Positions 2,542 through 63,033 of a DNA stretch of 64,000 nucleotides are shown piece by piece. Below the pieces are notes generated by a model that searched no databases, had not been told where the DNA came from, and was given only the letters and a program-made list of their open reading frames with translations. Source of the DNA: an uncultured Planctomycetia bacterium (GTDB taxonomy: Bacteria; Omnitrophota; Gorgyraeia; Pluralincolimonadales; Pluralincolimonadaceae). A program made the position numbers and the translations under genes. The stretch's first letter is position 1. Each line of letters begins with the position of its first letter. The stretch is from NCBI GenBank assembly GCA_964650515.1, contig CAZYUB010000001.1, forward strand, positions 65,726 through 129,725, read 5' to 3'.

Positions 2542-2618
2542 GTCCCCATCGTCTAGCCTGGTCAGGACACGAGCTTTTCAAGCTTGCGACCGGGGTTCAA
2601 ATCCCCGTGGGGACGCCA
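2542..2618 (+). tRNA. tRNA-Glu (anticodon UUC), CCA encoded
   Basis: Cloverleaf built by hand. Acceptor stem GTCCCCA pairs with TGGGGAC. D-arm is GTCT...GACA. Anticodon arm is CGAGC-TTTTCAA-GCTTG, giving loop TTTTCAA and anticodon TTC. T-arm is CGGGG-TTCAAAT-CCCCG. Discriminator G precedes CCA. The sequence is near-identical in pattern to E. coli tRNA-Glu. Confidence 0.9.
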
Positions 2619-52787: not shown

Positions 52788-53967
52788 CATGGAACGCGTA
52801 ATACTCAAAATCCTTGTGTTCGCGGCGTTTGCGGCGCTCGCAGCGCAGCCCGCCTGCGTAGCCATTACGGTCAGGGAAGACCCTGCTGCGGCTGCAGCGT
52901 ATAACCAGATGGGCGTGGACGCTTACAACAAGGGCGCGTATAAGGCCGCGATATCCTACCTCGAGCAGGCGCTGAAACTGAACAGGGGCAACAGGACCGT
53001 CGAGAAGAACCTCGCGGTCGCTTACGCGGGCCAGTCGGAGGCGGAGCTCGAGAGGCGCAACCTGGACCTCGCCGGGCAGTACGCGCAGCAGGCGCTGAAA
53101 TATGACGGGAAGAACATCACCGCGCTTTTCGTGCTCGGTGAGATAAAATATAACTCGCAGGAACTAGATGAGGCGAAAGCGCTCTGGCAGAAGATCCTCG
53201 ATATAGACCCGGATTTCAAATACGCCGAGGAGATCAGGAAGAGGATAGGCAAGGCCGAGACCGAGAACAAGGTCGAAAAAGAATACCGCTCTTCCGGGAT
53301 CGACCAGTTCGATATCAGGTACGCTAAGGAGGGCGCGCGGACCAGTTATAACGTGCGGTACTACCTGCAGGAAGCGTACAGGATACTCGGGCAGGAGTTC
53401 GATTACCGGCCGAAATACAGGATAGGCGTCATCCTTTACGACAGGGGCGATTTCGAGTCCATTCGCGACTGGAAGGGCGGCGCGAGCGGCATCTATGACG
53501 GCAAGATCCGGCTGCCGTTCGTCGGGGCGGGGTTCTCCGGCGACGAAATAAAGGGGATCGTCTGGCATGAATACACGCACCTGCTCGTCAATGATATCTC
53601 GCTCGGCAAGGCGCCGGACTGGCTCCACGAGGGGCTCGCTTATTACGAACAGTACAGGTGCATGCGCAGCAACCTCACGATACTGAAGAATGCCGTGAAG
53701 AACGACCTGTTGTTGGGGTTCGCCGAGCTTGATGGCGTTATCGGCGCCTCGACGGATAATGTACAATATCACCTTGCCACCCAGGAAGCGTATACGCTCG
53801 TGAAATATATGATGAAGAGGTACAATAAATACACGGTAAGGGAAATGCTCAGGATGCTCGGGGAAGGGATGGCATTCGAGGAAGTGGCGAAAAAGAAACT
53901 GTACGTGACTGTGCAGGAGCTCGAGAAACGCTGGTTGAAAAAGCTGAAAGCGGGGGAACTTTACTGA
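52788..53967 (+). CDS. secreted TPR-repeat protein with C-terminal HExxH (MA-clan-like) domain
   Basis: Start is placed at MERVILKILVFAAFAALAAQPACVA (signal peptide). TPR units are present. HEYTH and downstream EGLAYYE could be zinc ligands. Upstream part of the track ORF overlaps mazG and is rejected. Confidence 0.6.
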
Positions 53968-53968
53968 T

Positions 53969-54865
53969 ATGGCGGAAGATAATAAGATCAAGTCCGGTTT
54001 CGTCGCGATAGTCGGAAGGCCCAACGTCGGCAAGTCGACGGTGCTGAACCGCCTCGTCGGCGAAAAGGTCGCGATAGTCACCGAAAAGCCGGAGACGACG
54101 CGCAACAGGATACAGGGCATACTGACGGACAAGGACGCGCAGGTCGTCTTTGTGGATACGCCGGGCATACATAAGCCGAAGAACCTGCTCGGCAAGTACA
54201 TAACGAAGGCCGCGAAGGACTCGCTGCTCGAGGTCGACCTCGTCATATTCATAATCGACATGACAAAGGGTATCACCGACGAGGACAAGCTGATATTCAA
54301 GCTCGTGAAAGAGGCCGGCAAGCCCGCGCTGCTGCTGATAAACAAGGTCGACCTCAAGAGCAAATCACTCGCTCTGCCGCTCATAGAGGAGGCCGCGAAG
54401 CTTTACGATTTCAAGGAGCTGATACCGACATCGGCCCTGACCGGCGACAATATGGACGCGGTATTGGCGATGGCCATAAAGCACCTTCCGTACGGGCCGA
54501 AACTGTTCCCGGACAGCCAGTTTACCGATAAGACCGAAAGGTTCATGGCCGGCGAGATCGTCCGCGAGAAGGCGCTCGAGCTCACGCACGAAGAGGTCCC
54601 GCATTCGATAGCGGTGCTTATCGAGGAGTTTGCCGAAAGGCCGAAGAAGGTAACCTTCATCAGGGCGACGATATACGTCGAGCGGCAGTCGCAGAAGAAG
54701 ATAATAGTCGGGCACAGGGGGCAGATGCTCAAGTATATCGGCGAAGCCGCGAGAAGGGACATCCAGAAACTGATCGGAAGGCATGTTTTTATAGAACTCT
54801 GGGTCAAGGTCCATGAGAACTGGCGCAAGGACCCCCAGGCGCTGAAGGTCCTCGGTTATACATGA
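53969..54865 (+). CDS. era: GTPase Era
   Basis: G1 GRPNVGKST. G3 DTPG. G4 NKVD. C-terminal KH domain is present. Confidence 0.95.
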   Translation: MAEDNKIKSGFVAIVGRPNVGKSTVLNRLVGEKVAIVTEKPETTRNRIQGILTDKDAQVVFVDTPGIHKPKNLLGKYITKAAKDSLLEVDLVIFIIDMTKGITDEDKLIFKLVKEAGKPALLLINKVDLKSKSLALPLIEEAAKLYDFKELIPTSALTGDNMDAVLAMAIKHLPYGPKLFPDSQFTDKTERFMAGEIVREKALELTHEEVPHSIAVLIEEFAERPKKVTFIRATIYVERQSQKKIIVGHRGQMLKYIGEAARRDIQKLIGRHVFIELWVKVHENWRKDPQALKVLGYT

Positions 54866-54874
54866 TCGGCGGAT

Positions 54875-56566
54875 ATGAATAAATACGTAATACCTGCATC
54901 CCTGCTCCTGGTCCTTATCATGACATTTGTATCCTTCTATCCATGCCTCGGGAACGGTTTTACGCAGTGGGACGACAACCACCTTGTCACGGAGAACAGG
55001 CTTATACGCGACATCTCGCCGCGCGGCATCATCCGTATCTTCTCGACAGCGGATAACAGCAATTATAACCCGCTCACTCTCGTGTCCTACGCCGTGGAAT
55101 ACCGCCTCGCGGGGCTCGGTGACCCGTTCGTCTTCCACGCAACAAACCTTGCGCTGCACCTGCTGAATTCCGCCCTCGTCTTCTGGTTCATATACCTGGT
55201 AAGCAGGAGCGCGGCGGTATCGGTAATAACGGCGCTGTTGTTCGGCGTACACCCGATGCATGTCGAATCCGTCGCCTGGATCGCCGAACGAAAAGACGTG
55301 CTCTATTCGTTCTTCTTCCTGTCATCGCTGGTCGCCTACGTTTATTCCACGGAAAAAGGAGGGAGGAGGGGATTTTATTATCTTTCTCTGTGCCTCTCCC
55401 TTTTATCCATGCTTTCGAAGACCATGGCCGTCACTATGCCCGCGGTATTGCTGCTTATCGATTACCTGCTGCGCAGGAAGATAGACGGCAAGTCCCTGAT
55501 GGGGAAGGCGCCGTTTTTCGCGATAGCGTTCATCGTCGGCGCGGCGGGCTATTTCGCGCAACACGGCGGCGGGGCCCTGGGCCAGGCATACTTCGGGCCG
55601 GTAAAGAACGCGATGGTGGCGGTATACGGCCTCGGGTTTTACCTGAAGAAACTCTTTTTCCCGTCGGGCCTTTCCGCGTTCTATCCGTATCCGGCGGGCG
55701 CAGGGGACGCCATAACAGGCATGTTTCTTGCTTCGTTGCCGTTATTGCTGGCCGCGGCGGCGGCCGTCATCATTTCGTCCAGGTATACGAGAAAGGCGGT
55801 CTTCGGCGCGCTTTTCTTCCTCGTAGTCCTGTCGCCTGTGCTGAAATTCATCCCGCTCGGCAGGGCGATAGCCGCCGACCGTTATGTATATATCGCGTAC
55901 ATCGGGTTGTTTTACGTTATAGCCGAAGGCCTTTGCTCCATGGGGCGCAAAGGACCGGCCTTTAAATTCATGGTATCGGCGGCTGCAGCGGCGGCAATAT
56001 GTTTCCTGTCGTACCTGACATGGCAGAGGTGTTTCGTATGGAAGGACGATATCTCGCTGTGGAACGACGCGCTTAAACGCTATCCGAGCACGGAGGCCTA
56101 TTTCGGGCGCGGCGTAGGCCATGCCAACGCGGGACGGATTGACGACGCCATGCGGGATTATAACAAAGCGCTCGAATACGACCCGTACCTGAGCGACGTA
56201 TACGTAAACAGGGGGATACTATACGCGGCCACGGGGCAGGCGGAGAAGGCCCTGGAAGATTACTCGACCGCAATAATGTTAAGCCCCGGTTCGTATAAAC
56301 CGTATTATAACCGCGGCCTTATCTACGTCGCTATCGGGGATTACGAGAGGTCTGTCGGGGACTTCAGCGAGGTGATAAAACTAAAACCCGGCCATGCCGA
56401 GGCGTACTCGAACCGCGGCGCGAGTTTCGGCAATATGGGCAGGAACGAAGAGGCCATCGCCGATTTTGAAAAAGCAATAGAGATAGACCCGGGCTGCGAG
56501 GAAGCGCTTCGCAACAGGGCGGCCTATTATAATTCCAAAGACGAAAAATCGGGCAAAGCCCCTTGA
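54875..56566 (+). CDS. GT-C fold glycosyltransferase (PMT/TMTC-like) with C-terminal TPR repeats
   Basis: About 380 aa polytopic N-terminal region. Five or more TPR units at the C-terminus: YFGRGVGHANAGRIDDAMRDYNKALEYDP... Confidence 0.55.
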   Translation: MNKYVIPASLLLVLIMTFVSFYPCLGNGFTQWDDNHLVTENRLIRDISPRGIIRIFSTADNSNYNPLTLVSYAVEYRLAGLGDPFVFHATNLALHLLNSALVFWFIYLVSRSAAVSVITALLFGVHPMHVESVAWIAERKDVLYSFFFLSSLVAYVYSTEKGGRRGFYYLSLCLSLLSMLSKTMAVTMPAVLLLIDYLLRRKIDGKSLMGKAPFFAIAFIVGAAGYFAQHGGGALGQAYFGPVKNAMVAVYGLGFYLKKLFFPSGLSAFYPYPAGAGDAITGMFLASLPLLLAAAAAVIISSRYTRKAVFGALFFLVVLSPVLKFIPLGRAIAADRYVYIAYIGLFYVIAEGLCSMGRKGPAFKFMVSAAAAAAICFLSYLTWQRCFVWKDDISLWNDALKRYPSTEAYFGRGVGHANAGRIDDAMRDYNKALEYDPYLSDVYVNRGILYAATGQAEKALEDYSTAIMLSPGSYKPYYNRGLIYVAIGDYERSVGDFSEVIKLKPGHAEAYSNRGASFGNMGRNEEAIADFEKAIEIDPGCEEALRNRAAYYNSKDEKSGKAP

Positions 56567-56639
56567 ATTTCAGCCATCATATGGCATACTTTAATTGACC
56601 GAAAGGGCGGTCCGGCCGCCGGCCGGGCCTGACGCTCGG

Positions 56640-56790
56640 TGCGAAATACCCAAAGCGCACCGACCCCCATCAGGGCCGAAAGGGCGTGACGCAAAACTTC
56701 GGGCCTAAACCGAGGCCATTCCAGGTGGCACGGCAGGGCGGCGGAGTTACCGAAACCGGAGAAAAGGTCAAAGGCGTAGGTTGCCTCCCT
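56640..56790 (+). ncRNA. cyclic-di-GMP-I (GEMM) riboswitch aptamer
   Basis: CAGGGCCGAAAGGGCGUGACGCAAAACUUCGGGCCUAAACCGAGGCC...GGCAGGGCGGCGGAGUUACCGAAACCGG parallels V. cholerae Vc2 CAGGGCAAACC..GAAAG..GGGACGCAAAGCCUCCGGCCUAAACC...GGUAGGUAGCGGGGUUACCGAUGG. 5' boundary is uncertain. Confidence 0.6.
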
Positions 56791-56812
56791 TTATCGGTCG
56801 ACGTAAGATTTC

Positions 56813-56858
56813 GCCAGCGGCTAGAAGGAAGAGTTCCACAGCCGCTGGCCTGTTTTTT
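56813..56858 (+). terminator. intrinsic terminator in the riboswitch expression platform
   Basis: GCCAGCGGCT-(17 nt)-AGCCGCTGGC 10 bp stem followed by TGTTTTTT. Confidence 0.65.
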
Positions 56859-56882
56859 GCGAGCTGCGTAAGCAGCGAGCAT

Positions 56883-56907
56883 CCCGCAGATAGAATCTGC
56901 GGGAGAG
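56883..56907 (+). promoter_or_regulatory. SD-sequestering hairpin
   Basis: CCCGCAGA-TAGAA-TCTGCGGG is a perfect 8 bp stem. Its 3' arm overlaps GGGAGAG, the RBS of the ATG at 56912. Confidence 0.55.
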
Positions 56908-56911
56908 ACTC

Positions 56912-59044
56912 ATGCTTATATTTCGATGTTCTTCTCAGCAAGCGCAATCGCGCTTGCCATTTTGTTTTATAGCCTATATAATACAGCTGATGAACCCTGC
57001 CAACGTGAGCAATTTAGACAGAGCCGCGGTAGTCAGGAAGATACCGCTTTTTTCGGACCTGCCGCAGGTGGCGCAGAAGCTTATAGAAGAGCGCTGCTAC
57101 ATAGCGGAGTACAGGAAGGGCCATATCCTGTACAGGGAAGGCCTTCCGTCAGATTCTTTTTATTGTATCGTCTCCGGCCGTGCGAAAGTGTTCGTGAAGA
57201 CGCCTTCGGGCGAGGAGAAGACCCTCATATTCCTGCACAGGGGCGATTACGTCGGGATCGTGTCCCTGCTGACCAACGAGCCCCATTCCGCTTCGGTGCA
57301 GATGGTCAACGATTCCGTAGTCCTCAGGATAGACAAGAAGGATTTCGGCCAGCTTCTTAACGATGTCCCGCAACTCGCGCTTAAGCTCAGCGAATCGCTT
57401 TCGCGCCGCCTGAAAAGGAAAGAATCCAGGGCCAAGGCCGTATTCGAATCCACGATAATATCGGTCTATGGGCCCGCCAAGAAGACCGGCAGGACGATGT
57501 ATTCGGTGAACCTCGCGATAGCGCTCGCTTACGAGACGCGCAAAAAGGTCATGCTGATAGATATGAGCGCGACGGGCAAAGAATGCTCGTCGATGCTGCG
57601 CATGGAAGGCGAACTCCCCTGCGTCGGCATGGAGTCCGGCATGCTCAGTTACGAGGACGTGAAGGACAAGATGATCAAGTATGAGGCCGGGGGCATATTC
57701 CTGCTTAACGCCGCCTGCGGCCCGTCATCGCGCATAGACTCAGGCACGGTGATATCACTGCTCAGTTCGATAGCCGCGGAATTCAATTATATTGTCGTGG
57801 ATATGCCCGCGGAGATGGACAAGCCGATATATTCCGTATTGACCCAATCCGACCTGATACATATCGTCACCGATTCCGGGGAGCATAATCTCAGGTCCAC
57901 CGGACGGCTCATAGAGGAGCTCAGGAAGACGGTAAAGGACCCCGACGCGACGATAAAGACGATAATAAACGAATTCGTCATGACAAAGACATTCGAGGAG
58001 GAGATCAAGCTTCTCGGGCACAAGGCGTACGCGACATTGCCGGACCTTGGTATGCTTGCGGGAATGATGGCAGCGGGCCTGCCGCCGGTCCTCGCGGTGC
58101 CGGAATGCCTCTATTCGAGGTCGGTGCGCAGGATCGCCAGGGAGATAGGCAGGATACTCGTGGGCCTCGCGCTCGGTTCAGGCGCGGCGCTCGGCCTTGT
58201 CCATATAGGGGTGCTGAAAGTCCTCGAGAAAGAGAAGATACCGATAGATTTTATCGCGGGGACCTCGATCGGCGCGGTCGTAGCCGCGTTCTGGGCGTCG
58301 GGCATGGAAGCGGCCGAGCTCGAAAAGGTCGCGATGAGGTTCAAGGACAGGAAGATGCTGCTTTCGCTCGCGGACTTCTCGCTGATGCCTCTGCAGGGTT
58401 TCCTTAACGGGAACAACCTCAAGAAACTTTACCGTGAGTACCTCGGAAGGAAGACGTTCCACGACACGCATACGCCGCTCAAGATAGTCGCGAACACGCT
58501 GCGCTCGCGCGAAAACATAATATTCGACGAGGGAAGCCTGGTCGACGCGGTCCGCGCGTCGAGCTCGATACCCGCGATAATAAAGCCGGTCCGTTACGGC
58601 GATGATTTCCTGATAGACGGCGGGACGTTCGATCCGGTGCCGATAGACGTGCTCATGAAAGGCGGCGCAAAGAAGATCATAGCGGTCAACTGCCTGCCGA
58701 GCCAGGACGAGATGAAGAAGATATTCGACGAGTTCGAGCAGAAACGCCGCAAGGAAGAGGCAAAACTCGCGAACGGCTCGATATTCGCGCGCATATCGTA
58801 TAATTTCAATAACTGGGTGCGCAGGACATTCGCGCCGAACGTATTCGACGTGATGATGAACACCTCGCTCGCCATGCAGTATGTGCTGGCCGAGGAGTCG
58901 TCGCGCGAAGCGGACTGCGTAATACACCCCATACTCACGAACGCGGTCTGGTTCGAGCTGTATAAGGCGGAAGAGCTTATCAAGCGCGGTGAGGAGGAGA
59001 CACGCAGGATGCTCCCCCAGATAAAAGCGCTTATCGAAGAATAA
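56912..59044 (+). CDS. cNMP-binding domain - degenerate ParA/CpaE-like domain - patatin-like phospholipase
   Basis: cNMP-binding beta-barrel at about aa 40-160. Central MinD/ParA-like segment without an intact Walker A. Patatin motifs GLALGSGAALG (GxGxxG), GTSIGAVV (GxSxG) and IDGGTFD (DGG). Confidence 0.75.
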   Translation: MLIFRCSSQQAQSRLPFCFIAYIIQLMNPANVSNLDRAAVVRKIPLFSDLPQVAQKLIEERCYIAEYRKGHILYREGLPSDSFYCIVSGRAKVFVKTPSGEEKTLIFLHRGDYVGIVSLLTNEPHSASVQMVNDSVVLRIDKKDFGQLLNDVPQLALKLSESLSRRLKRKESRAKAVFESTIISVYGPAKKTGRTMYSVNLAIALAYETRKKVMLIDMSATGKECSSMLRMEGELPCVGMESGMLSYEDVKDKMIKYEAGGIFLLNAACGPSSRIDSGTVISLLSSIAAEFNYIVVDMPAEMDKPIYSVLTQSDLIHIVTDSGEHNLRSTGRLIEELRKTVKDPDATIKTIINEFVMTKTFEEEIKLLGHKAYATLPDLGMLAGMMAAGLPPVLAVPECLYSRSVRRIAREIGRILVGLALGSGAALGLVHIGVLKVLEKEKIPIDFIAGTSIGAVVAAFWASGMEAAELEKVAMRFKDRKMLLSLADFSLMPLQGFLNGNNLKKLYREYLGRKTFHDTHTPLKIVANTLRSRENIIFDEGSLVDAVRASSSIPAIIKPVRYGDDFLIDGGTFDPVPIDVLMKGGAKKIIAVNCLPSQDEMKKIFDEFEQKRRKEEAKLANGSIFARISYNFNNWVRRTFAPNVFDVMMNTSLAMQYVLAEESSREADCVIHPILTNAVWFELYKAEELIKRGEEETRRMLPQIKALIEE

Positions 59045-59059
59045 TAAAGGAGAGTCATA

Positions 59060-60370
59060 ATGGCAAGCGGCGAGAAATTCGATTGCATAGTGGTAGGGGC
59101 GGGCCCCGCCGGGACGACGTGCGCGTACGCGCTCGCGAAAGCCGGCCTCAGCGTGGTCCTGCTCGAGCGCGGGGAGAAGCCCGGCTCGAAGAACGTGATG
59201 GGAGGCATACTCTACTCGACCATACTGAACAAAGTGATCCCGGAATTCTGGAAAGAGGCGCCGGTCGAGCGCAGGATAGTTCAGAAAAAATTCGCGGTGC
59301 TTTCGGACGATTCCGAGGTCGGCCTCGGGCTGAGGTTCGAGGGATTCAACAAGCCGCCGTATAACAACACGTTCTCCGTATTGCGCGGGAAATTCGACGC
59401 GTGGTACGCGGCCAAGGCCGAAGAGGCCGGGGTGATGATACTCAACGAGGCCGTCGTCGATAAGGTCATCGTCGAGGGCAAGAAGGCCGTCGGGGTCAAG
59501 ACGCGGCTCGAGGACGGAGACCTTTTCGCGGACACGGTCGTCGTTGCGGAAGGCGTGACGTCGCTGCTGGCGCAAGGGCTGGGCCTGCGCGAGAAACACG
59601 TGCCCGAGCATATGGTGACATGCTGCAAAGAGGTAATCGGCCTGCCGAAAGAAACCATCGAAGAGAGGTTCGGCATTGAGGGCGATGAGGGCGCGTCGCT
59701 CGAGTATTTCGGAGGGTCGGTCAAGGGGCTCGTGGGCTCGGCGTTCTTATACACGAACAAGGAATCGGTATCGCTCGGCATTGGCGTCTCGACAAACGAC
59801 CTGAAGAACAATAAACTGACCCCGAACGACCTGATTGAGAATTTCAAGGAGCACCCGTCGATAAAACATTACATAAAAGGCGGGAAGCTGCTCGAATATT
59901 CCGCGCATATGATCCCTGAGTTCGGTTACGACCATCTTCCGAAACTCACGATGGACGGGCTAATTATCGCGGGCGACGCCGCCGGCTTCGTGAACATGAA
60001 CCCGCTCTACCACGAGGGCTCGAACCTCGCGATGGCGTCCGGGCTCGCCGCGGCCGAAACGATAATAGAAGCGAAGAAGAACAACGATCTCTCGGAGAAG
60101 GGCCTCGCCGGGTACCGCAGGAGGCTAGAGGGCTCATTCGTGTTGATGGACCTCAAGAGGTATAAGGGCATATCGAATTTCGCGCTGAAGCATCCCGAAT
60201 TTTTCAAGGAATACCCGGAATTGCTGGTAGATCTGGCGGAGGAGTTCTTCACCGTGTCCGAGACGCCTAAGGGCAAGTCGAGGATGGCCGTGATCAAGAA
60301 AGGCCTGAAGAGCGTGAACCTGCTGAAACTCGCCGTCGGGATGAATCGCGCGCGCAAAGTGATGTTCTAA
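59060..60370 (+). CDS. FixC-like FAD-dependent dehydrogenase (ETF-QO family)
   Basis: KFDCIVVGAGPAGTTCAYALAKAGLSVVLLERGEKPGSKNVMGG aligns with E. coli FixC KFDAIVVGAGLAGSVAALVLAREGAQVLVIERGNSAGAKNVTGG. SVLRGKFDAW also aligns. Confidence 0.75.
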   Translation: MASGEKFDCIVVGAGPAGTTCAYALAKAGLSVVLLERGEKPGSKNVMGGILYSTILNKVIPEFWKEAPVERRIVQKKFAVLSDDSEVGLGLRFEGFNKPPYNNTFSVLRGKFDAWYAAKAEEAGVMILNEAVVDKVIVEGKKAVGVKTRLEDGDLFADTVVVAEGVTSLLAQGLGLREKHVPEHMVTCCKEVIGLPKETIEERFGIEGDEGASLEYFGGSVKGLVGSAFLYTNKESVSLGIGVSTNDLKNNKLTPNDLIENFKEHPSIKHYIKGGKLLEYSAHMIPEFGYDHLPKLTMDGLIIAGDAAGFVNMNPLYHEGSNLAMASGLAAAETIIEAKKNNDLSEKGLAGYRRRLEGSFVLMDLKRYKGISNFALKHPEFFKEYPELLVDLAEEFFTVSETPKGKSRMAVIKKGLKSVNLLKLAVGMNRARKVMF

Positions 60371-60380
60371 AGAGAAACTT

Positions 60381-62183
60381 ATGCGTGAAGACACGATTCC
60401 TTTGATGTTTTTCGCGAGGGCGAACAAGTACGGCAACAGGTGCGCCCTGAGGCACAAGGCCGGCGGAAGGTACCACGACATAAGCTGGTCGGAGTTCGAG
60501 GGCAAGGTCAAGGACCTGGCTTTCGGGCTGATCACCCTCGGCCTGAAGCCGGGCGAGAAGGTCGCGCTGCTTTCGGAGAACCGTCCCGAGTGGGCGTATT
60601 CAGACCTGGCCGTCCTTTCGCTCGGATGCGCCGACGTGCCGCTTTACCCGACCGACGTCCCCCACCAGATGGAATATATAATAAGGGATTCCGACTCGGT
60701 AATCGCGATCGTCTCGACCGCCGGGCAGCTCGACAAGATACTTTCCGTAAGCGCGCGCCTGCCGTCGCTCAGGAAAATAATAGTCATGGACCCCGACGGC
60801 AGGGCAAAGAGGCCCGAGGTCATATCCTTCGCGGACCTGCTCGATGCGGGCTCCGCAGCCGCCGCGGACGCGAGGATGGATTTCGAGTCACGTCTCCGGT
60901 CACTGAAGAAGGAAGGCCTCGCCTCGATAGTATACACGTCGGGGACTACCGGCCAGGCGAAAGGCGTCTGCCTAACGCACGATAACTTCCTTTCCAACTG
61001 CCGTTCTTCATTGGATGTCCTGCCGTTCAACGAGAACGATGTATGCCTTTCTTTCCTGCCGCTTTCGCATGTCTTCGAAAGGATGGCGAGTTATTATTTC
61101 ACGCTGACGATCGGCGGCACGATCGCCTACGCGGAGAATATGGAATCGGTCGGCAGGAACCTGAAGGAAGTCCGGCCCACTTACGCCTGCGCGGCCCCGA
61201 GGTTCTACGAGAAACTCCACGCGGGAATAATGGAGAAGGCCTCGCAGAGCCCGCCGTCGAAGCAGAAAGCGCTCGAATGCGCCCTGAATACCGCCAAAGA
61301 ATACGCGCGGGCGAAACTGAACAACCTCGAGGCCGGACCGGCGCTCTGGCTTAAATACCATTGCGCGAAGATATTTATATTCCGCAGGATAAACGAGGCA
61401 GTCGGAGGGCGCATAAGGTTCTTCATATCCGGGAGCGCGCCGCTGTCTAAGGAACTGGCGGAGTTCTTCTATTCGGTCGGGATCTTCATATTCGAGGGGT
61501 ACGGGCTCACGGAGACGTCCCCGGTAGTGACCGTCAATACGTTCCGCGCGTTGAGGTACGGATCCGTAGGAAGGCCGATAAAGGACGTCGAGGTGAAGAC
61601 CGCTTCCGACGGGGAGATACTCATAAAAGGCCCGTCGGTCATGAATGGTTACTACAAGAACGATAGGGCAACGGCCGAATCGATAGACCCCGAGGGCTGG
61701 CTGCATACCGGCGATATCGGGTATTTCGACGCCGATGGCTTCCTGTATATCACAGACAGGAAGAAGGACATAATAATAACCGCGGGCGGCAAGAATATCG
61801 CGCCGCAGAACGTCGAGAACCTCATAAAGAGCGATTCATACATACAGGAAGTCGTGGTCCATGGCGACCGCAGGCCGTACCTGACGGCGCTGATAGTGCC
61901 GGATTTCAACGCGATGAAAGGCCTCGCGCTGCGGCTCGGGATACCGTACACGTCGGTGCCGGAACTTGTCGGGCATCCGCGCGTCCAGGAGTTCCTGTCG
62001 AAGAGGATAGAGGAAAAACAGGCGGAACTGGCCAATTACGAGAAGATAAAGAAATTCAGGATTCTCGACAGGGGACTGACGATAGAAGAAGGCGAGATCA
62101 CGCCCACGCTGAAAGTAAAGCGCCGGGTCGTCGCGGAGAAATACAAAGAGGTCTTCGACGAGATGTATTCGTCGCGGGGGTGA
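60381..62183 (+). CDS. long-chain acyl-CoA synthetase (AMP-forming)
   Basis: YTSGTTGQAKGV AMP-binding motif. Length is 600 aa. Confidence 0.85.
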   Translation: MREDTIPLMFFARANKYGNRCALRHKAGGRYHDISWSEFEGKVKDLAFGLITLGLKPGEKVALLSENRPEWAYSDLAVLSLGCADVPLYPTDVPHQMEYIIRDSDSVIAIVSTAGQLDKILSVSARLPSLRKIIVMDPDGRAKRPEVISFADLLDAGSAAAADARMDFESRLRSLKKEGLASIVYTSGTTGQAKGVCLTHDNFLSNCRSSLDVLPFNENDVCLSFLPLSHVFERMASYYFTLTIGGTIAYAENMESVGRNLKEVRPTYACAAPRFYEKLHAGIMEKASQSPPSKQKALECALNTAKEYARAKLNNLEAGPALWLKYHCAKIFIFRRINEAVGGRIRFFISGSAPLSKELAEFFYSVGIFIFEGYGLTETSPVVTVNTFRALRYGSVGRPIKDVEVKTASDGEILIKGPSVMNGYYKNDRATAESIDPEGWLHTGDIGYFDADGFLYITDRKKDIIITAGGKNIAPQNVENLIKSDSYIQEVVVHGDRRPYLTALIVPDFNAMKGLALRLGIPYTSVPELVGHPRVQEFLSKRIEEKQAELANYEKIKKFRILDRGLTIEEGEITPTLKVKRRVVAEKYKEVFDEMYSSRG

Positions 62184-62187
62184 GAGC

Positions 62188-63033
62188 TTGAAATTCGAAG
62201 GGTCCTTCAAGAACAAGGACGCGCAGAATATAATATACAGGGCGTTCATCCCCGATAACCCGAAGGCCGTCGTCGTCCTCGCGCACGGGCTCGGTGAGCA
62301 CTCGCTGAAATACGGGTATTTCGGAGACGCGCTTTATTCCGCGGGCATCGCGGCGTTCCTGTACGACCAGCGCGGGCACGGCAGGTCGCAGGGAAGGCGC
62401 GTCTATGTGAAGGATTTCGACGATTACGTGAGCGACCTCCGGCAGATGGCCGTGATCGCGAAGGTCGAGACGCTCTGCGACAGGGTTTTTATCGTCGGGC
62501 TCAGCATGGGCGGGCTGCTCGCGCTTGAATACGCGATAAGATACTCCGATGCCAGGAACGGAATAAGGGGCATCGTCGTTAGCGCGCCGGCGCTTAAACT
62601 GAAGTCGCCGCCGAGCGGCATAGAGAAAGGCATAGTCGGGCTCATCGCGTTCCTGATGCCGCGGCTTACTACGCCGAACAGGATACCGTTCGAGTGGCTG
62701 ACGCACGACAGGGAGCTCATAAAGGACACGAAGGCAGACAAGCTTTCGCAGCGCGTGATATCGTTCGGGTTATACGCCGAGATGACCAAGGCGATGCGTT
62801 TTGTCTCCGAGAATATCGGGAAAATGGATGTCCCTGCGTTATTCCTGCAGGGAACGGACGACAAGGTCGTGGATATGGCAGGCGTCAGGGAGATATTCGA
62901 CAGGATACCTGCCAAGGACAAGGAGCTCGCCCTTTATGAAGGGATGTACCATGAATTACTCAGGGAGACGCGGCGGGAAGAGATAATCGGGAAGATCACG
63001 GATTGGGTCTTAAAAAGAGCGGGGGAGAGATGA
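62188..63033 (+). CDS. alpha/beta-hydrolase, lysophospholipase/monoacylglycerol-lipase-like
   Basis: HGLGEHS. GLSMGG, GxSxG. Length is 281 aa. Confidence 0.75.
   Translation: MKFEGSFKNKDAQNIIYRAFIPDNPKAVVVLAHGLGEHSLKYGYFGDALYSAGIAAFLYDQRGHGRSQGRRVYVKDFDDYVSDLRQMAVIAKVETLCDRVFIVGLSMGGLLALEYAIRYSDARNGIRGIVVSAPALKLKSPPSGIEKGIVGLIAFLMPRLTTPNRIPFEWLTHDRELIKDTKADKLSQRVISFGLYAEMTKAMRFVSENIGKMDVPALFLQGTDDKVVDMAGVREIFDRIPAKDKELALYEGMYHELLRETRREEIIGKITDWVLKRAGER

What the first reader, a model, noticed from the sequence alone, without database searches (positions are those of the whole stretch)
56912..59044. Riboswitch-controlled three-domain protein: cNMP-binding, degenerate ParA/CpaE-like, patatin phospholipase
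This combines a cyclic-nucleotide-binding beta-barrel, a MinD/CpaE-like segment apparently lacking an intact Walker A (YGPAKKTGRTMYSVNLAIALA), and a complete patatin catalytic core (GxGxxG, GTSIG, DGG). cNMP-patatin pairs recall neuropathy-target-esterase-like lipases. The inserted degenerate ParA-like module and the c-di-GMP riboswitch control are not architectures I recognise as described. A strong promoter-like element, TTGCCA-17-TATAAT at 56954-56982, lies inside the first 25 codons just before an alternative ATG at 56990. This could drive a riboswitch-independent shorter isoform.
Basis: partly seen in the sequence, partly recalled or inferred. Interest (0 to 1): 0.6.

Follow-up and report, generated by a model that had tools for sequence, protein, structure and literature searches.

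The report
Riboswitch-led three-domain lipase of Omnitrophota
This is a real, uncharacterised lipid-cleaving enzyme, conserved across the uncultured phylum Omnitrophota, that carries two degenerate regulatory domains and sits behind an unusual c-di-GMP riboswitch, linking that bacterial signal to lipid breakdown.

Summary
The ORF encodes three domains, confirmed by Pfam, PDB profile search and a confident AlphaFold model: a CRP/PKA-like cNMP-type barrel, a complete MinD/ParA-fold domain, and an RssA/PlpD-like patatin hydrolase. The Ser-Asp dyad is invariant in 61 relatives. The Walker A is degenerate. The two key cNMP-contacting residues are also replaced (Arg to His in 61/61), so cAMP/cGMP control is doubtful.

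The true start is ATG 56990 (684 aa). ATG 56912 lies in a window-specific insertion, so there is no long isoform.

The riboswitch is real. Its aptamer starts near 56597 and has an expanded P1, which explains the sub-threshold Rfam score. Covariation supports the fold. A c-di-GMP-I-type aptamer lies upstream on the same strand in 26 of 80 related loci. It sits either directly before the gene or before a GH1 glycosidase gene that directly precedes it.

Two promoter-like elements (P1 before the leader, P2 before the ATG) keep their hexamers and spacing while their spacers diverge. Downstream genes (ETF-QO-like, acyl-CoA ligase, alpha/beta-hydrolase) suggest lipid catabolism.

The ligands, the switch direction and the substrate remain unknown. 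I found no paper describing this architecture.

The parts
56563..56590 (+). P1, a promoter-like element for the leader: TTGAAT (56563-68), 16-nt spacer, TGG-CATACT (-10 at 56585-90). The predicted transcription start is near 56597.
   Evidence: The hexamers and the 16-nt spacing are kept in 12 distinct leaders while the spacer sequences differ. The simple scanner did not flag it. This is an inference from conservation.
56595..56801 (+). Structured leader holding a c-di-GMP-I (GEMM-I)-type aptamer with an expanded P1. Elements: closing helix 56595-602 / 56794-801; P1a 56607-08 / 56691-92; inserted hairpin A 56611-27; P1b 56632-35 / 56684-87; inserted hairpin B 56636-63; P2 56695-56748; conserved 3' hairpins 56750-59 and 56773-85.
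   Evidence: Rfam RF01051 scores 33.6 bits, E 8e-5, at 56664-56754. Orthologous aptamers score 35-82 bits. On 12 leaders the proposed structure is 98.9% paired, with 11 pairs showing compensatory changes, 0 of 500 shuffles as good, and slid controls at 26-48%.
56813..56858 (+). Intrinsic terminator of the leader: stem GCCAGCGGCU (56813-22) / AGCCGCUGGC (56840-49), then U6 (56853-58).
   Evidence: RNAfold forms it. The stem is conserved with compensatory changes (for example GCCGGCGGCU/GGCCGCCGGC in L083 and GCCAACGGCU/AGCCGUUGGC in L004) and with a variable loop. In L089 an analogous 14-bp terminator lies 27 nt before the start codon.
56860..56945 (+). Window-specific insertion between terminator and promoter. 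It contains two hairpins and the non-conserved ATG 56912 with an SD-like GGGAGAG.
   Evidence: It is absent from L001, L004, L006 and L081-L088, except for its first hairpin in L083. It is not repeated elsewhere in the window.
56954..56982 (+). P2, a promoter-like element TTGCCA-17-TATAAT, 7 nt upstream of ATG 56990. Its -35 overlaps a terminator-like hairpin at 56938-56957.
   Evidence: The scanner gives 11 of 12 matches. TTGNNN-17-TATAAT, followed 7-8 nt later by the ATG, is kept in the window and in every related leader whose gene start was recovered (12; L086 lacks the gene), while the spacers diverge. In L006 an in-frame stop shows that the conservation is at DNA level, not protein level.
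56990..59044 (+). Coding sequence of the three-domain protein (684 aa from the conserved start).
   Evidence: Orthologues of 682-686 aa start at this Met. The AlphaFold2 model has pLDDT 86.3 and pTM 0.84.
57107..57361 (+). CRP/PKA-like cNMP-type beta-barrel (residues 66-150 in 710-aa numbering) with a non-canonical phosphate-binding cassette, GDYVGIVSLLTNEPHSA.
   Evidence: Pfam PF00027, E 1.8e-23. It aligns to PKG, PKA and CRP structures. The position of the canonical Arg is His in 61 of 61 members, and the position of the canonical Glu is I/T/M/V in 59 of 61.
57437..58156 (+). MinD/ParA-fold domain (residues about 176-415) with a degenerate Walker A. Only G193-[R/K]194-T195 is kept. The Walker B-like D297-x-P299 is conserved.
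   Evidence: A family profile against the PDB gives 3ea0 (ParA-family ATPase) at E 1.7e-16 and archaeal MinD 1ion at 6.5e-13, over about 230 residues. Foldseek TM-scores, normalised to the target, are 0.75-0.79 to 3ea0, 4v02 and 1hyq. At the P-loop Lys position there are 43 R, 14 K and 4 other residues out of 61, and the signature Lys is never present.
58151..59035 (+). Patatin / RssA-like acyl hydrolase domain (residues 414-708): GSGAALG, GTS452IG, D569GG, plus a C-terminal helical region.
   Evidence: Pfam PF01734, E 1.7e-35. NCBIfam RssA aligns over positions 3-297 of 301 at 122 bits, below its equivalog cut-off. Foldseek to PlpD 5fya gives E 1e-18 and TM 0.84, followed by CapV/CapE and patatin. 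Ser and Asp are invariant in 61 of 61.
59060..63033 (+). Tightly spaced downstream genes, probably the same operon: FAD oxidoreductase with an ETF-QO ubiquinone-binding domain (59060-60370), AMP-binding acyl-CoA ligase (60381-62183), and an alpha/beta-hydrolase resembling lysophospholipases (62188-63033).
   Evidence: ORFs with gaps of 5-16 nt. Pfam assignments for the first two. The hydrolase was not scanned: it is named from its HGLGEHS and GLSMGG motifs and from a Hydrolase_4 gene at the same position in L089. An acyl-CoA ligase lies downstream in 15 related loci. In L089 the gene is followed by 3-hydroxyacyl-CoA dehydrogenase, enoyl-CoA hydratase, an acyl-CoA ligase and a Hydrolase_4 protein.

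Best explanation
The locus encodes a cytoplasmic lipid acyl hydrolase (patatin/RssA type, Ser452-Asp569 dyad) that is conserved across Candidatus Omnitrophota.

Its catalytic domain is preceded by two regulatory modules that have kept their folds but lost their textbook chemistry.
- The first is a CRP/PKA-like ligand-binding barrel. The cyclic-phosphate Arg is always His and the ribose Glu is hydrophobic.
- The second is a complete MinD/ParA-fold domain. Its deviant Walker A has decayed to G-[R/K]-T, so it is probably a pseudo-ATPase.
- Inferred mechanism: an unidentified small ligand binds the barrel. The MinD-like domain, a fold that normally forms nucleotide-sandwich dimers, relays this as a dimerisation or scaffold module that gates the hydrolase.

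Expression works as follows.
- Promoter P1 (near 56563-56590) starts a leader at about 56597. The leader folds into a c-di-GMP-I-type aptamer with an expanded P1 and an extra conserved 3' domain, and is followed by an intrinsic terminator (56813-56858).
- c-di-GMP is inferred to set how much transcription reads through into the gene and the downstream lipid-utilisation genes. The direction of the switch is not determined.
- In the window's clade a second conserved promoter-like element, P2 (56954-56982), lies 7 nt before the ATG. It probably adds a riboswitch-independent transcript with little or no leader for the same 684-aa protein.

Inferred physiological role: release of fatty acids from phospholipids or glycolipids for activation by the adjacent acyl-CoA ligase and for beta-oxidation. 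In most of the phylum a GH1 glycosidase gene lies immediately upstream and is probably co-transcribed, which suggests glycolipid substrates.
For: Shown by tool results:
- Domain architecture and fold.
- Invariant Ser and Asp, degenerate P-loop and degenerate phosphate-binding cassette in 61 sequences: with residue-level alignments to MinD and to PKG/PKA.
- A large family, almost all labelled Omnitrophota: more than 841 proteins; among at least 600 pattern-matching stretches in species-representative genomes, 540 encode a relative.
- The start codon at 56990, and the fact that 56912 lies in an insertion.
- A c-di-GMP-I or c-di-GMP-I-GGC aptamer upstream on the same strand in 21 of 80 loci at Rfam gathering score. 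A custom covariance model adds L001, L003, L004, L073 and L077, giving 26 of 80, or 26 of 67 loci with enough upstream DNA. It also finds the aptamer in L089, which was not used to build the model (81.8 bits).
- In L089 the order is aptamer, strong terminator, 27 nt, start codon. This is a classic termination riboswitch for this gene.
- Covariation supports the expanded aptamer fold in the window clade.
- P1 and P2 keep their hexamers and spacing while their spacers vary.
- Lipid context: ETF-QO-like protein, acyl-CoA ligase and alpha/beta-hydrolase in the window; 3HCDH, ECH, acyl-CoA ligase and Hydrolase_4 in L089; an acyl-CoA ligase downstream in 15 loci; a GH1 gene immediately upstream in 48 of 80 loci.
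Against: - No experiment supports any activity, ligand or transcript.
- RNAfold finds the terminator in every constrained fold and finds no clear antiterminator. The switching mechanism and its direction are therefore unresolved. The leader could terminate constitutively in this clade.
- P2 could make the gene largely independent of the riboswitch here.
- About 60% of evaluable loci show no aptamer, so riboswitch control is not universal in the family.
- The oxyanion motif lacks the usual Arg/Lys: that position is L, M, Y or F. From memory, PNPLA2-type enzymes have a similar motif; this was not tested here.
- 14 of 61 members keep a GKT in the P-loop, so nucleotide binding by the central domain cannot be excluded.
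- The operon structure is inferred only from gene spacing.
Confidence: 0.55

Rival explanations
1. In the window's clade the riboswitch leader is an autonomous RNA of about 260 nt that always terminates, perhaps acting as a c-di-GMP-binding small RNA or as a decoy. The lipase gene is then transcribed only from P2, so it is not riboswitch-controlled here.
For: The stable terminator forms in all RNAfold scenarios, and no antiterminator was found. P2 is conserved and lies between the terminator and the ATG, 7-8 nt from it. In L086 the same leader and terminator are followed by unrelated DNA for more than 4 kb.
Against: In L089, and in the GH1-linked loci, the aptamer heads the transcription unit with no room for a second promoter. 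The link between leader and gene is kept in every other leader copy found. Minimum-free-energy folding is a poor detector of kinetic antiterminators.
Confidence: 0.2
2. The protein is an anti-phage or abortive-infection effector of the Pycsar/CBASS type. A cyclic-nucleotide alarm signal would bind the N-terminal domain and unleash the phospholipase on the cell's own membrane.
For: In PADLOC the N-terminal domain matches cNMP-binding TIR effectors (PycTIR, E 2e-12 to 1.6e-13), and the patatin domain matches CBASS phospholipase effectors (E 1.5e-9). Foldseek hits CapV and CapE. NCBIfam gives a weak CBASS_lipase hit.
Against: The family shows conserved synteny: Era upstream, GH1 or an acyl-CoA ligase adjacent, and a tRNA about 5 kb downstream. 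This is unlike patchy defence islands. No nucleotide cyclase gene lies next to it in the window, L089, L090 or L091. The neighbours are lipid-catabolic. The closest patatin relatives are RssA and PlpD.
Confidence: 0.08
3. One reading: a cAMP- or cGMP-regulated lipase resembling neuropathy target esterase, made as two isoforms. The 710-aa form would be riboswitch-controlled and a shorter form would come from an internal promoter.
For: Pfam cNMP_binding and Patatin domains are present in one chain. ATG 56912 has an SD-like GGGAGAG upstream.
Against: ATG 56912 and its surroundings are missing from orthologous loci, and the extension is not conserved as protein. The canonical phosphate-binding Arg is His in 61 of 61 members and the Glu is lost in 59 of 61. 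The protein has a single cNMP-type domain. Its patatin domain fits RssA over the model's full length (positions 3-297 of 301). From memory, NTE has three cNMP domains and a membrane anchor; no anchor prediction was run on this protein.
Confidence: 0.04

Closest known systems
RssA (YchK) / PlpD-type bacterial patatin-like phospholipases
   Same: The C-terminal 295 residues align over the full length of the RssA model. The best structural match is the PlpD lipase domain, with TM 0.84. The GxSxG Ser and the DGG Asp dyad are conserved.
   Different: RssA is a single-domain protein of about 300 aa, and PlpD is a secreted type Vd autotransporter. Here the domain is fused to two N-terminal regulatory folds. 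The score is below NCBIfam's equivalog cut-off (122 against 272 bits). The oxyanion-loop Arg/Lys is replaced by a hydrophobic residue.
Neuropathy target esterase (PNPLA6) and PNPLA7
   Same: A cNMP-type domain and a patatin domain occur in one polypeptide. According to PMC9319352 (abstract), the cNMP-binding domains of NTE are not essential for its activity.
   Different: From memory, NTE has an N-terminal membrane anchor and three cNMP domains, and no MinD-like domain. Here there is a single barrel, and a MinD-fold module is inserted. No membrane-anchor prediction was run here. The sequence affinity of the patatin domain is to bacterial RssA and PlpD.
MinD/ParA (SIMIBI) deviant Walker A ATPases, including the CpaE/TadZ-like protein 3ea0
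   Same: The fold is complete, aligning over about 230 residues at E 1.7e-16 to 6.5e-13 with TM 0.75-0.79. The Walker B-like Asp-x-Pro and the Thr after the P-loop are conserved.
   Different: The signature Lys and the Gly-Gly of KGGxxGK[ST] are lost in all members, and the P-loop Lys is Arg in 43 of 61. The domain is internal to a larger enzyme rather than a free-standing positioning ATPase.
c-di-GMP-I (GEMM-I) riboswitches, RF01051 and the RF03167 GGC variant
   Same: The conserved core is present: GGGC...GACGCAAAAC...CCUAAAC...GGAGUUACCGAA, with P1/P2 architecture. Orthologous copies pass the Rfam threshold (35-82 bits). A terminator follows the aptamer.
   Different: In the window clade P1 carries two inserted hairpins. 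The usual GNRA-capped P1b hairpin is not apparent, the AAA linker is replaced by a hairpin, and an invariant block of about 45 nt follows the aptamer and closes a long-range helix with the 5' end. The window copy scores below Rfam's gathering threshold.
CapV/CapE (CBASS) and cNMP-domain Pycsar effectors
   Same: The logic is the same: a nucleotide-sensing module coupled to a patatin phospholipase or another membrane- or NAD-destroying effector. Profile and fold similarity are seen.
   Different: There is no adjacent cyclase. The gene is vertically conserved and syntenic, its neighbours are lipid-catabolic, and the sensor residues are non-canonical.

Membership tests
Patatin-like phospholipase (PF01734) | The Pfam model is matched above its gathering score. 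| tested here: met
   123.4 bits against a cut-off of 27.7, E 1.7e-35, over profile positions 1-190 of 191.
Patatin-like phospholipase (PF01734) | Catalytic Ser in GxSxG and catalytic Asp in DG[GA]. | tested here: met
   GTS452IG and D569GG are present. Ser and Asp are invariant in 61 of 61 family members.
Patatin-like phospholipase (PF01734) | Glycine-rich oxyanion loop, G-G-x-[RK]-G. | tested here: inconclusive
   The loop reads GSGAALG. The glycines are conserved, but the R/K position is L, M, Y or F in all 61 members. From memory, PNPLA2-type enzymes have a similar GCGFLG.
Patatin-like phospholipase (PF01734) | Patatin alpha/beta fold. | tested here: met
   Foldseek to PlpD 5fya gives E 1.1e-18 and TM 0.84. 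Patatin 1oxw/4pk* and CapV also match.
Patatin-like phospholipase (PF01734) | Lipid acyl-hydrolase activity. | not testable with these tools
   This needs an enzyme assay.
Cyclic nucleotide-binding domain (PF00027), as a cAMP/cGMP receptor | Beta-barrel fold and a Pfam match. | tested here: met
   82.7 bits against a cut-off of 27.5. Foldseek and phmmer match CRP, GlxR, PKA and PKG.
Cyclic nucleotide-binding domain (PF00027), as a cAMP/cGMP receptor | Phosphate-binding cassette with G-E (contacting the ribose 2'-OH) and R-[ST]-A (contacting the cyclic phosphate). | tested here: not met
   Aligned to PKG GDYFGERALLYDEPRSA, the protein reads GDYVGIVSLLTNEPHSA. The Glu position is I, T, M or V in 59 of 61 members. 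The Arg position is His in 61 of 61.
MinD/ParA deviant Walker A ATPases | SIMIBI MinD-like fold over the whole domain. | tested here: met
   A family profile against the PDB gives E 1.7e-16 (3ea0) and 6.5e-13 (1ion) over about 230 residues. TM-scores are 0.75-0.79.
MinD/ParA deviant Walker A ATPases | Deviant Walker A, xKGGxxGK[ST], with the signature Lys. | tested here: not met
   The window has GPAKKTGRT. The signature-Lys column is P, A, L, S, V or T. The Gly-Gly is not conserved. The P-loop Lys is R in 43, K in 14 and another residue in 4 of 61.
MinD/ParA deviant Walker A ATPases | Walker B / switch II Asp (hhhhD-x-P). | tested here: met
   D297 is invariant in 61 of 61 and P299 is present in 60 of 61.
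MinD/ParA deviant Walker A ATPases | ATP binding, ATP hydrolysis and ATP-dependent dimerisation. | not testable with these tools
   This needs biochemistry. Loss of ATPase activity is inferred from the sequence.
c-di-GMP-I riboswitch (RF01051) | The Rfam gathering score is reached. | tested here: not met
   The window scores 33.6 bits against 35. Orthologous leaders score 35.0 (L002) and 56.6 (L006). More distant loci score 36.3-82.4 bits for RF01051, and three loci instead pass RF03167 (62.5-73.4 against 59).
c-di-GMP-I riboswitch (RF01051) | P1 and P2 helices supported by covariation around the conserved core. | tested here: met
   P1a 19-107 is CG in 11 sequences and UA in 1. P1b 43-103 is AU in 8 and CG in 3. 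P2 pairs also show compensatory changes. Overall 98.9% of cells are paired and 0 of 500 shuffles are as good.
c-di-GMP-I riboswitch (RF01051) | GNRA tetraloop on P1b docking into a receptor in P2 (type 1 architecture). | tested here: inconclusive
   In the window clade P1b is interrupted by inserted hairpins. A GAAA sequence (56678-81) is present, but not as a clear capped P1b hairpin.
c-di-GMP-I riboswitch (RF01051) | Specific binding of c-di-GMP and ligand-dependent gene control. | not testable with these tools
   This needs in-line probing or ITC, and transcription assays.
Neuropathy target esterase (PNPLA6) family | N-terminal membrane anchor, three cNMP domains and a C-terminal NEST patatin domain. 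| tested here: not met
   There is one cNMP-type domain, a MinD-like insert, and a patatin domain closest to RssA and PlpD. No membrane-anchor prediction was run.
CBASS / Pycsar effectors | Encoded next to a cGAS/DncV-like or Pycsar cyclase, in a variable defence locus. | tested here: not met
   No cyclase neighbour is present in the window, L089, L090 or L091. Synteny is conserved across the phylum.

The most novel reading that the evidence does not exclude
c-di-GMP, or a related nucleotide signal, is sensed twice at this locus. The first sensor is an atypical expanded GEMM-I leader. The second is the protein itself, through its His-substituted barrel or its decayed MinD-like nucleotide pocket. 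This would make it a feed-forward, second-messenger-gated lipase that Omnitrophota use to remodel or attack membranes, their own or those of a host or prey cell. The pseudo-ATPase MinD fold would be a new kind of allosteric relay for a patatin enzyme.
Probability: 0.1. Interest if true: 0.8.

Novelty: new variant of a known kind. Interest (0 to 1): 0.5.

Why it matters
Omnitrophota are widespread, uncultured, often ultra-small bacteria whose physiology is known almost only from genomes. This gene occurs in a very large number of their genomes but is annotated only as 'patatin-like phospholipase'.

If the model is right, three things follow.
- It defines a new regulatory architecture for patatin lipases: a ligand-binding barrel plus a MinD-fold pseudo-ATPase.
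- It gives a concrete link between c-di-GMP signalling and lipid or glycolipid catabolism.
- It provides a natural GEMM-I variant with an expanded P1 and an extra conserved domain, which is useful for riboswitch structural biology.

It also corrects gene models. Several database entries extend the ORF through the promoter, and one extends it through the riboswitch.

Tried and rejected
- Rfam at gathering threshold on the whole window found only a tRNA. The riboswitch needed a local E-value search and comparative work.
- I first accepted Rfam's aptamer coordinates (56664-56754). I rejected them after the L006 alignment and the covariation count showed that the 5' strand lies upstream.
- I looked for an antiterminator with constrained RNAfold and by eye in the window and in L089. 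Nothing was convincing, so the ON/OFF direction is left open.
- Six of the seven literature searches looked for this architecture, for c-di-GMP riboswitches with patatin, or for Omnitrophota with c-di-GMP. None found a description of this family. The seventh looked up the c-di-GMP-I-GGC variant and found nothing on its ligand.
- I considered that the conservation upstream of ATG 56990 reflects an N-terminal protein extension. I rejected this because the spacer 'codons' vary, L006 has an in-frame stop and a 1-nt shift, and the hexamers and spacing are what is conserved.
- I considered a mobile repeat as the origin of the 56860-56945 insertion. There is no second copy in the window.
- I did not run the 1.84-billion-protein representative search or further homologue searches. 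The top hits would be saturated by the family itself.


Full report
**1. What is in the sequence**

- The ORF 56912..59044 (+) exists and encodes 710 aa.
- Pfam finds three domains: cNMP_binding at residues 66-150 (E 1.8e-23), AAA_31, a MinD/ParA-type family, at 191-343 (27.6 bits, just above the cut-off of 27), and Patatin at 419-581 (E 1.7e-35).
- NCBIfam aligns residues 414-708 to the whole RssA model, positions 3-297 of 301. The score of 122.5 bits is below the equivalog cut-off.
- The promoter-like TTGCCA-17-TATAAT at 56954-56982 is found by the scanner with 11 of 12 matches.
- Rfam at gathering threshold reports only a tRNA in the window. A local search gives c-di-GMP-I at 56664-56754 with 33.6 bits against a threshold of 35, E 8e-5.

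**2. The gene start**

- A homologue search returned more than 841 proteins. Nearly all named ones come from Candidatus Omnitrophota and are annotated only as 'patatin-like phospholipase family protein' or 'NTE family protein'.
- Most are 682-686 aa and begin at the Met that corresponds to ATG 56990.
- I aligned the upstream DNA of the window with L001-L004 and L006 and with eight metagenomic copies. The stretch 56860-56945, which holds ATG 56912 and its SD-like GGGAGAG, is an insertion that other copies lack. The one exception is its first hairpin, which L083 shares.
- The apparent N-terminal extension in some database proteins is a translation of the promoter region. The 773-aa entry P0007 even reads through the riboswitch.
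- The protein is therefore 684 aa, and there is no long isoform.

**3. The three domains**

An AlphaFold2 model built on a 61-sequence alignment is confident, with pLDDT 86.3 and pTM 0.84.

Foldseek against the PDB matches each domain:
- The C-terminal domain matches the PlpD lipase domain (E 1e-18, TM 0.84), CapV/CapE and patatin.
- The central domain matches a ParA-family ATPase (3ea0, TM 0.75) and MinD (4v02 and 1hyq, TM 0.76-0.79).
- The N-terminal domain matches CRP and GlxR.

A profile of the central domain alone hits 3ea0 at E 1.7e-16 and archaeal MinD at 6.5e-13 over about 230 residues. It is a complete MinD/ParA fold, not a linker.

Column counts on 61 sequences show the following:
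- *Walker A.* Only G193-[R/K]-T195 survives of the deviant motif. The P-loop Lys position is R in 43, K in 14 and another residue in 4. The signature Lys and the Gly-Gly are gone. The Walker B-like D297-x-P299 is conserved.
- *Phosphate-binding cassette.* The cNMP barrel looks very like PKG and PKA (GDYVGIVSLLTNEPHSA against GDYFGERALLYDEPRSA). However, the Arg that binds the cyclic phosphate is His in 61 of 61, and the Glu that binds the ribose is hydrophobic or Thr in 59 of 61.
- *Patatin motifs.* Ser452 and Asp569 are invariant. The glycine-rich loop is kept, but its usual Arg/Lys is L, M, Y or F.

I infer an active hydrolase, a pseudo-ATPase relay domain, and a sensor whose ligand is probably not cAMP or cGMP bound in the canonical way.

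**4. The riboswitch**

*Distribution*
- I scanned 80 related loci from species-representative genomes. Rfam finds c-di-GMP-I, or the c-di-GMP-I-GGC variant, at gathering score in 21 of them. In every one the hit is upstream of the gene and on the same strand.
- A covariance model built from these hits adds L001, L003, L004, L073 and L077. It also adds L089, which was not used to build it (81.8 bits). In the 64-kb window its only hit is 56630-56754.
- The total is 26 of 80 loci, or 26 of the 67 that have at least 300 nt of upstream sequence.

*Position relative to the gene*
- In the window clade and in L089 the aptamer directly precedes the gene.
- In L013 and L015, which I inspected directly, it precedes a GH1 glycosidase gene (Pfam Glyco_hydro_1) that abuts or overlaps the lipase gene. 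Such a GH1 gene lies immediately upstream of the lipase gene in 48 of 80 loci. In the other GH1-linked loci with an aptamer, the aptamer lies just 5' of that GH1 gene.
- In L007 a nitroreductase gene intervenes.
- In L089 the order is promoter-like element, canonical aptamer, a 14-bp terminator, 27 nt, then the start codon. This is a textbook termination riboswitch for this gene.

*Why the window copy scores low*
- The Rfam alignment of L006 (56.6 bits) uses a 5' strand that lies upstream of the segment aligned in the window.
- On 12 distinct leaders I tested a fold with these elements: closing helix 56595-602 / 56794-801; P1a 56607-08 / 56691-92; inserted hairpin A; P1b 56632-35 / 56684-87; inserted hairpin B; the GEMM-I P2; and two 3' hairpins.
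- 98.9% of cells pair, and 11 pairs show compensatory changes, including pairs in P1a and P1b. No shuffle out of 500 does as well, and slid controls pair at 26-48%.
- A block of about 45 nt after the aptamer is almost invariant, even where the proteins are only 67-73% identical.

*The terminator and the switch*
- The terminator (56813-22 / 56840-49, then U6) is conserved with compensatory changes.
- I could not identify an antiterminator.
- The strand 56788-56800 can pair either with the 5' tail of the leader or with a near-repeat at 56672-82 inside the aptamer. This may be the switch, but the direction of regulation is open.

**5. Promoters**

- P1 is TTGAAT, a 16-nt spacer, then TGG-CATACT (56563-56590). 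P2 is TTGCCA, a 17-nt spacer, then TATAAT (56954-56982).
- In all 12 leaders both keep their hexamers and exact spacing while the spacers diverge. This is the pattern expected of functional sigma-70-type promoters.
- P1 places the transcription start at about 56597, the first base of the closing helix.
- P2 ends 7-8 nt before the ATG, which suggests a transcript with little or no leader.
- Its -35 overlaps a terminator-like hairpin at 56938-57.
- P2 is absent in L089, where the terminator abuts the start codon.

**6. Genomic context and function**

- In the window the gene is followed, at gaps of 5-16 nt, by three genes: an FAD oxidoreductase with an ETF-QO ubiquinone-binding domain, an AMP-binding acyl-CoA ligase, and an alpha/beta-hydrolase resembling lysophospholipases.
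- The hydrolase was not scanned against Pfam. I name it from its sequence motifs and from the Hydrolase_4 gene at the same position in L089.
- In L089 the gene is followed by 3-hydroxyacyl-CoA dehydrogenase, enoyl-CoA hydratase, an acyl-CoA ligase and a Hydrolase_4 protein. A PilZ-domain gene lies further on.
- An acyl-CoA ligase lies downstream in 15 loci.
- Together with the GH1 partner, this points to deacylation of phospholipids or glycolipids that feeds fatty-acid activation and beta-oxidation. This is an inference.

**7. Rival explanations**

- *Defence effector.* PADLOC profiles for PycTIR and for CBASS phospholipases match the individual domains. However, the conserved synteny, the lack of a neighbouring cyclase and the catabolic neighbours argue against it.
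- *Autonomous, always-terminated leader RNA with expression only from P2.* This is possible in this clade. It fits poorly with L089 and with the GH1-linked loci.

**8. Novelty**

- Literature searches found no description of this architecture, nor of a c-di-GMP riboswitch controlling a patatin enzyme in Omnitrophota.
- Each part belongs to a known kind. The combination, the two decayed regulatory folds and the expanded aptamer make it a new variant rather than a new category.

Noticed in passing
L013 2760-3992, L015 2750-3991, and 46 further loci: A GH1-family glycosidase gene of about 410 aa lies immediately upstream of the three-domain gene, often overlapping it, in 48 of 80 related loci. 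This forms a conserved gene pair that the window's clade has lost.
   Followed up: partly
L015 2126-2223, L026 2562-2659, L035 3780-3881: In these loci the upstream aptamer matches the c-di-GMP-I-GGC variant model (RF03167) rather than RF01051. From memory, this variant was proposed to have altered ligand-contact nucleotides, so the ligand may differ between lineages.
   Followed up: no
L034 1095-1180 and 2251-2384; L054 9774-9860: L034 carries two c-di-GMP-I aptamers upstream of the operon. L054 has a further one downstream of the acyl-CoA ligase gene. GEMM-I elements seem to be frequent in these genomes.
   Followed up: no
L086 4330-8736: The same leader and terminator as in L081 are followed here by more than 4 kb of unrelated AT-rich DNA instead of P2 and the lipase gene. 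This could be an insertion or an assembly join.
   Followed up: partly
L089 15602-16105: A PilZ-domain gene (PilZ is a c-di-GMP receptor domain) lies between two M48 peptidase genes, in the same gene string as the lipase and beta-oxidation genes.
   Followed up: no
L042 9829-9886, L069 9942-9996, L079 5864-5918: nhaA-I RNA matches lie a few hundred bases after a conserved tRNA gene downstream of the family locus. The tRNA about 5 kb downstream recurs in many loci.
   Followed up: no
window 56636-56663: Hairpin B of the leader has a conserved 11-nt loop (AAnAnnCCAAA) on a stem that covaries at six pairs. This suggests a tertiary contact or a binding site. I do not recall it as part of the described GEMM-I consensus.
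   Followed up: partly
window 58178-59611 (-), 53164-54384 (-), 54365-55261 (-): Long antisense ORFs of 298-477 aa overlap the real genes. They are probably composition artefacts, not genes.
   Followed up: no
window 2542-2615: A tRNA gene, the only Rfam hit at gathering score in the window.
   Followed up: no
P0007 (773 aa), P0001 (696 aa), P0010, P0022: Public gene calls for orthologues start upstream of the conserved Met. Some start at the TTG of the P2 -35 box, and P0007 starts upstream of the riboswitch. These annotated N-termini are artefacts.
   Followed up: yes
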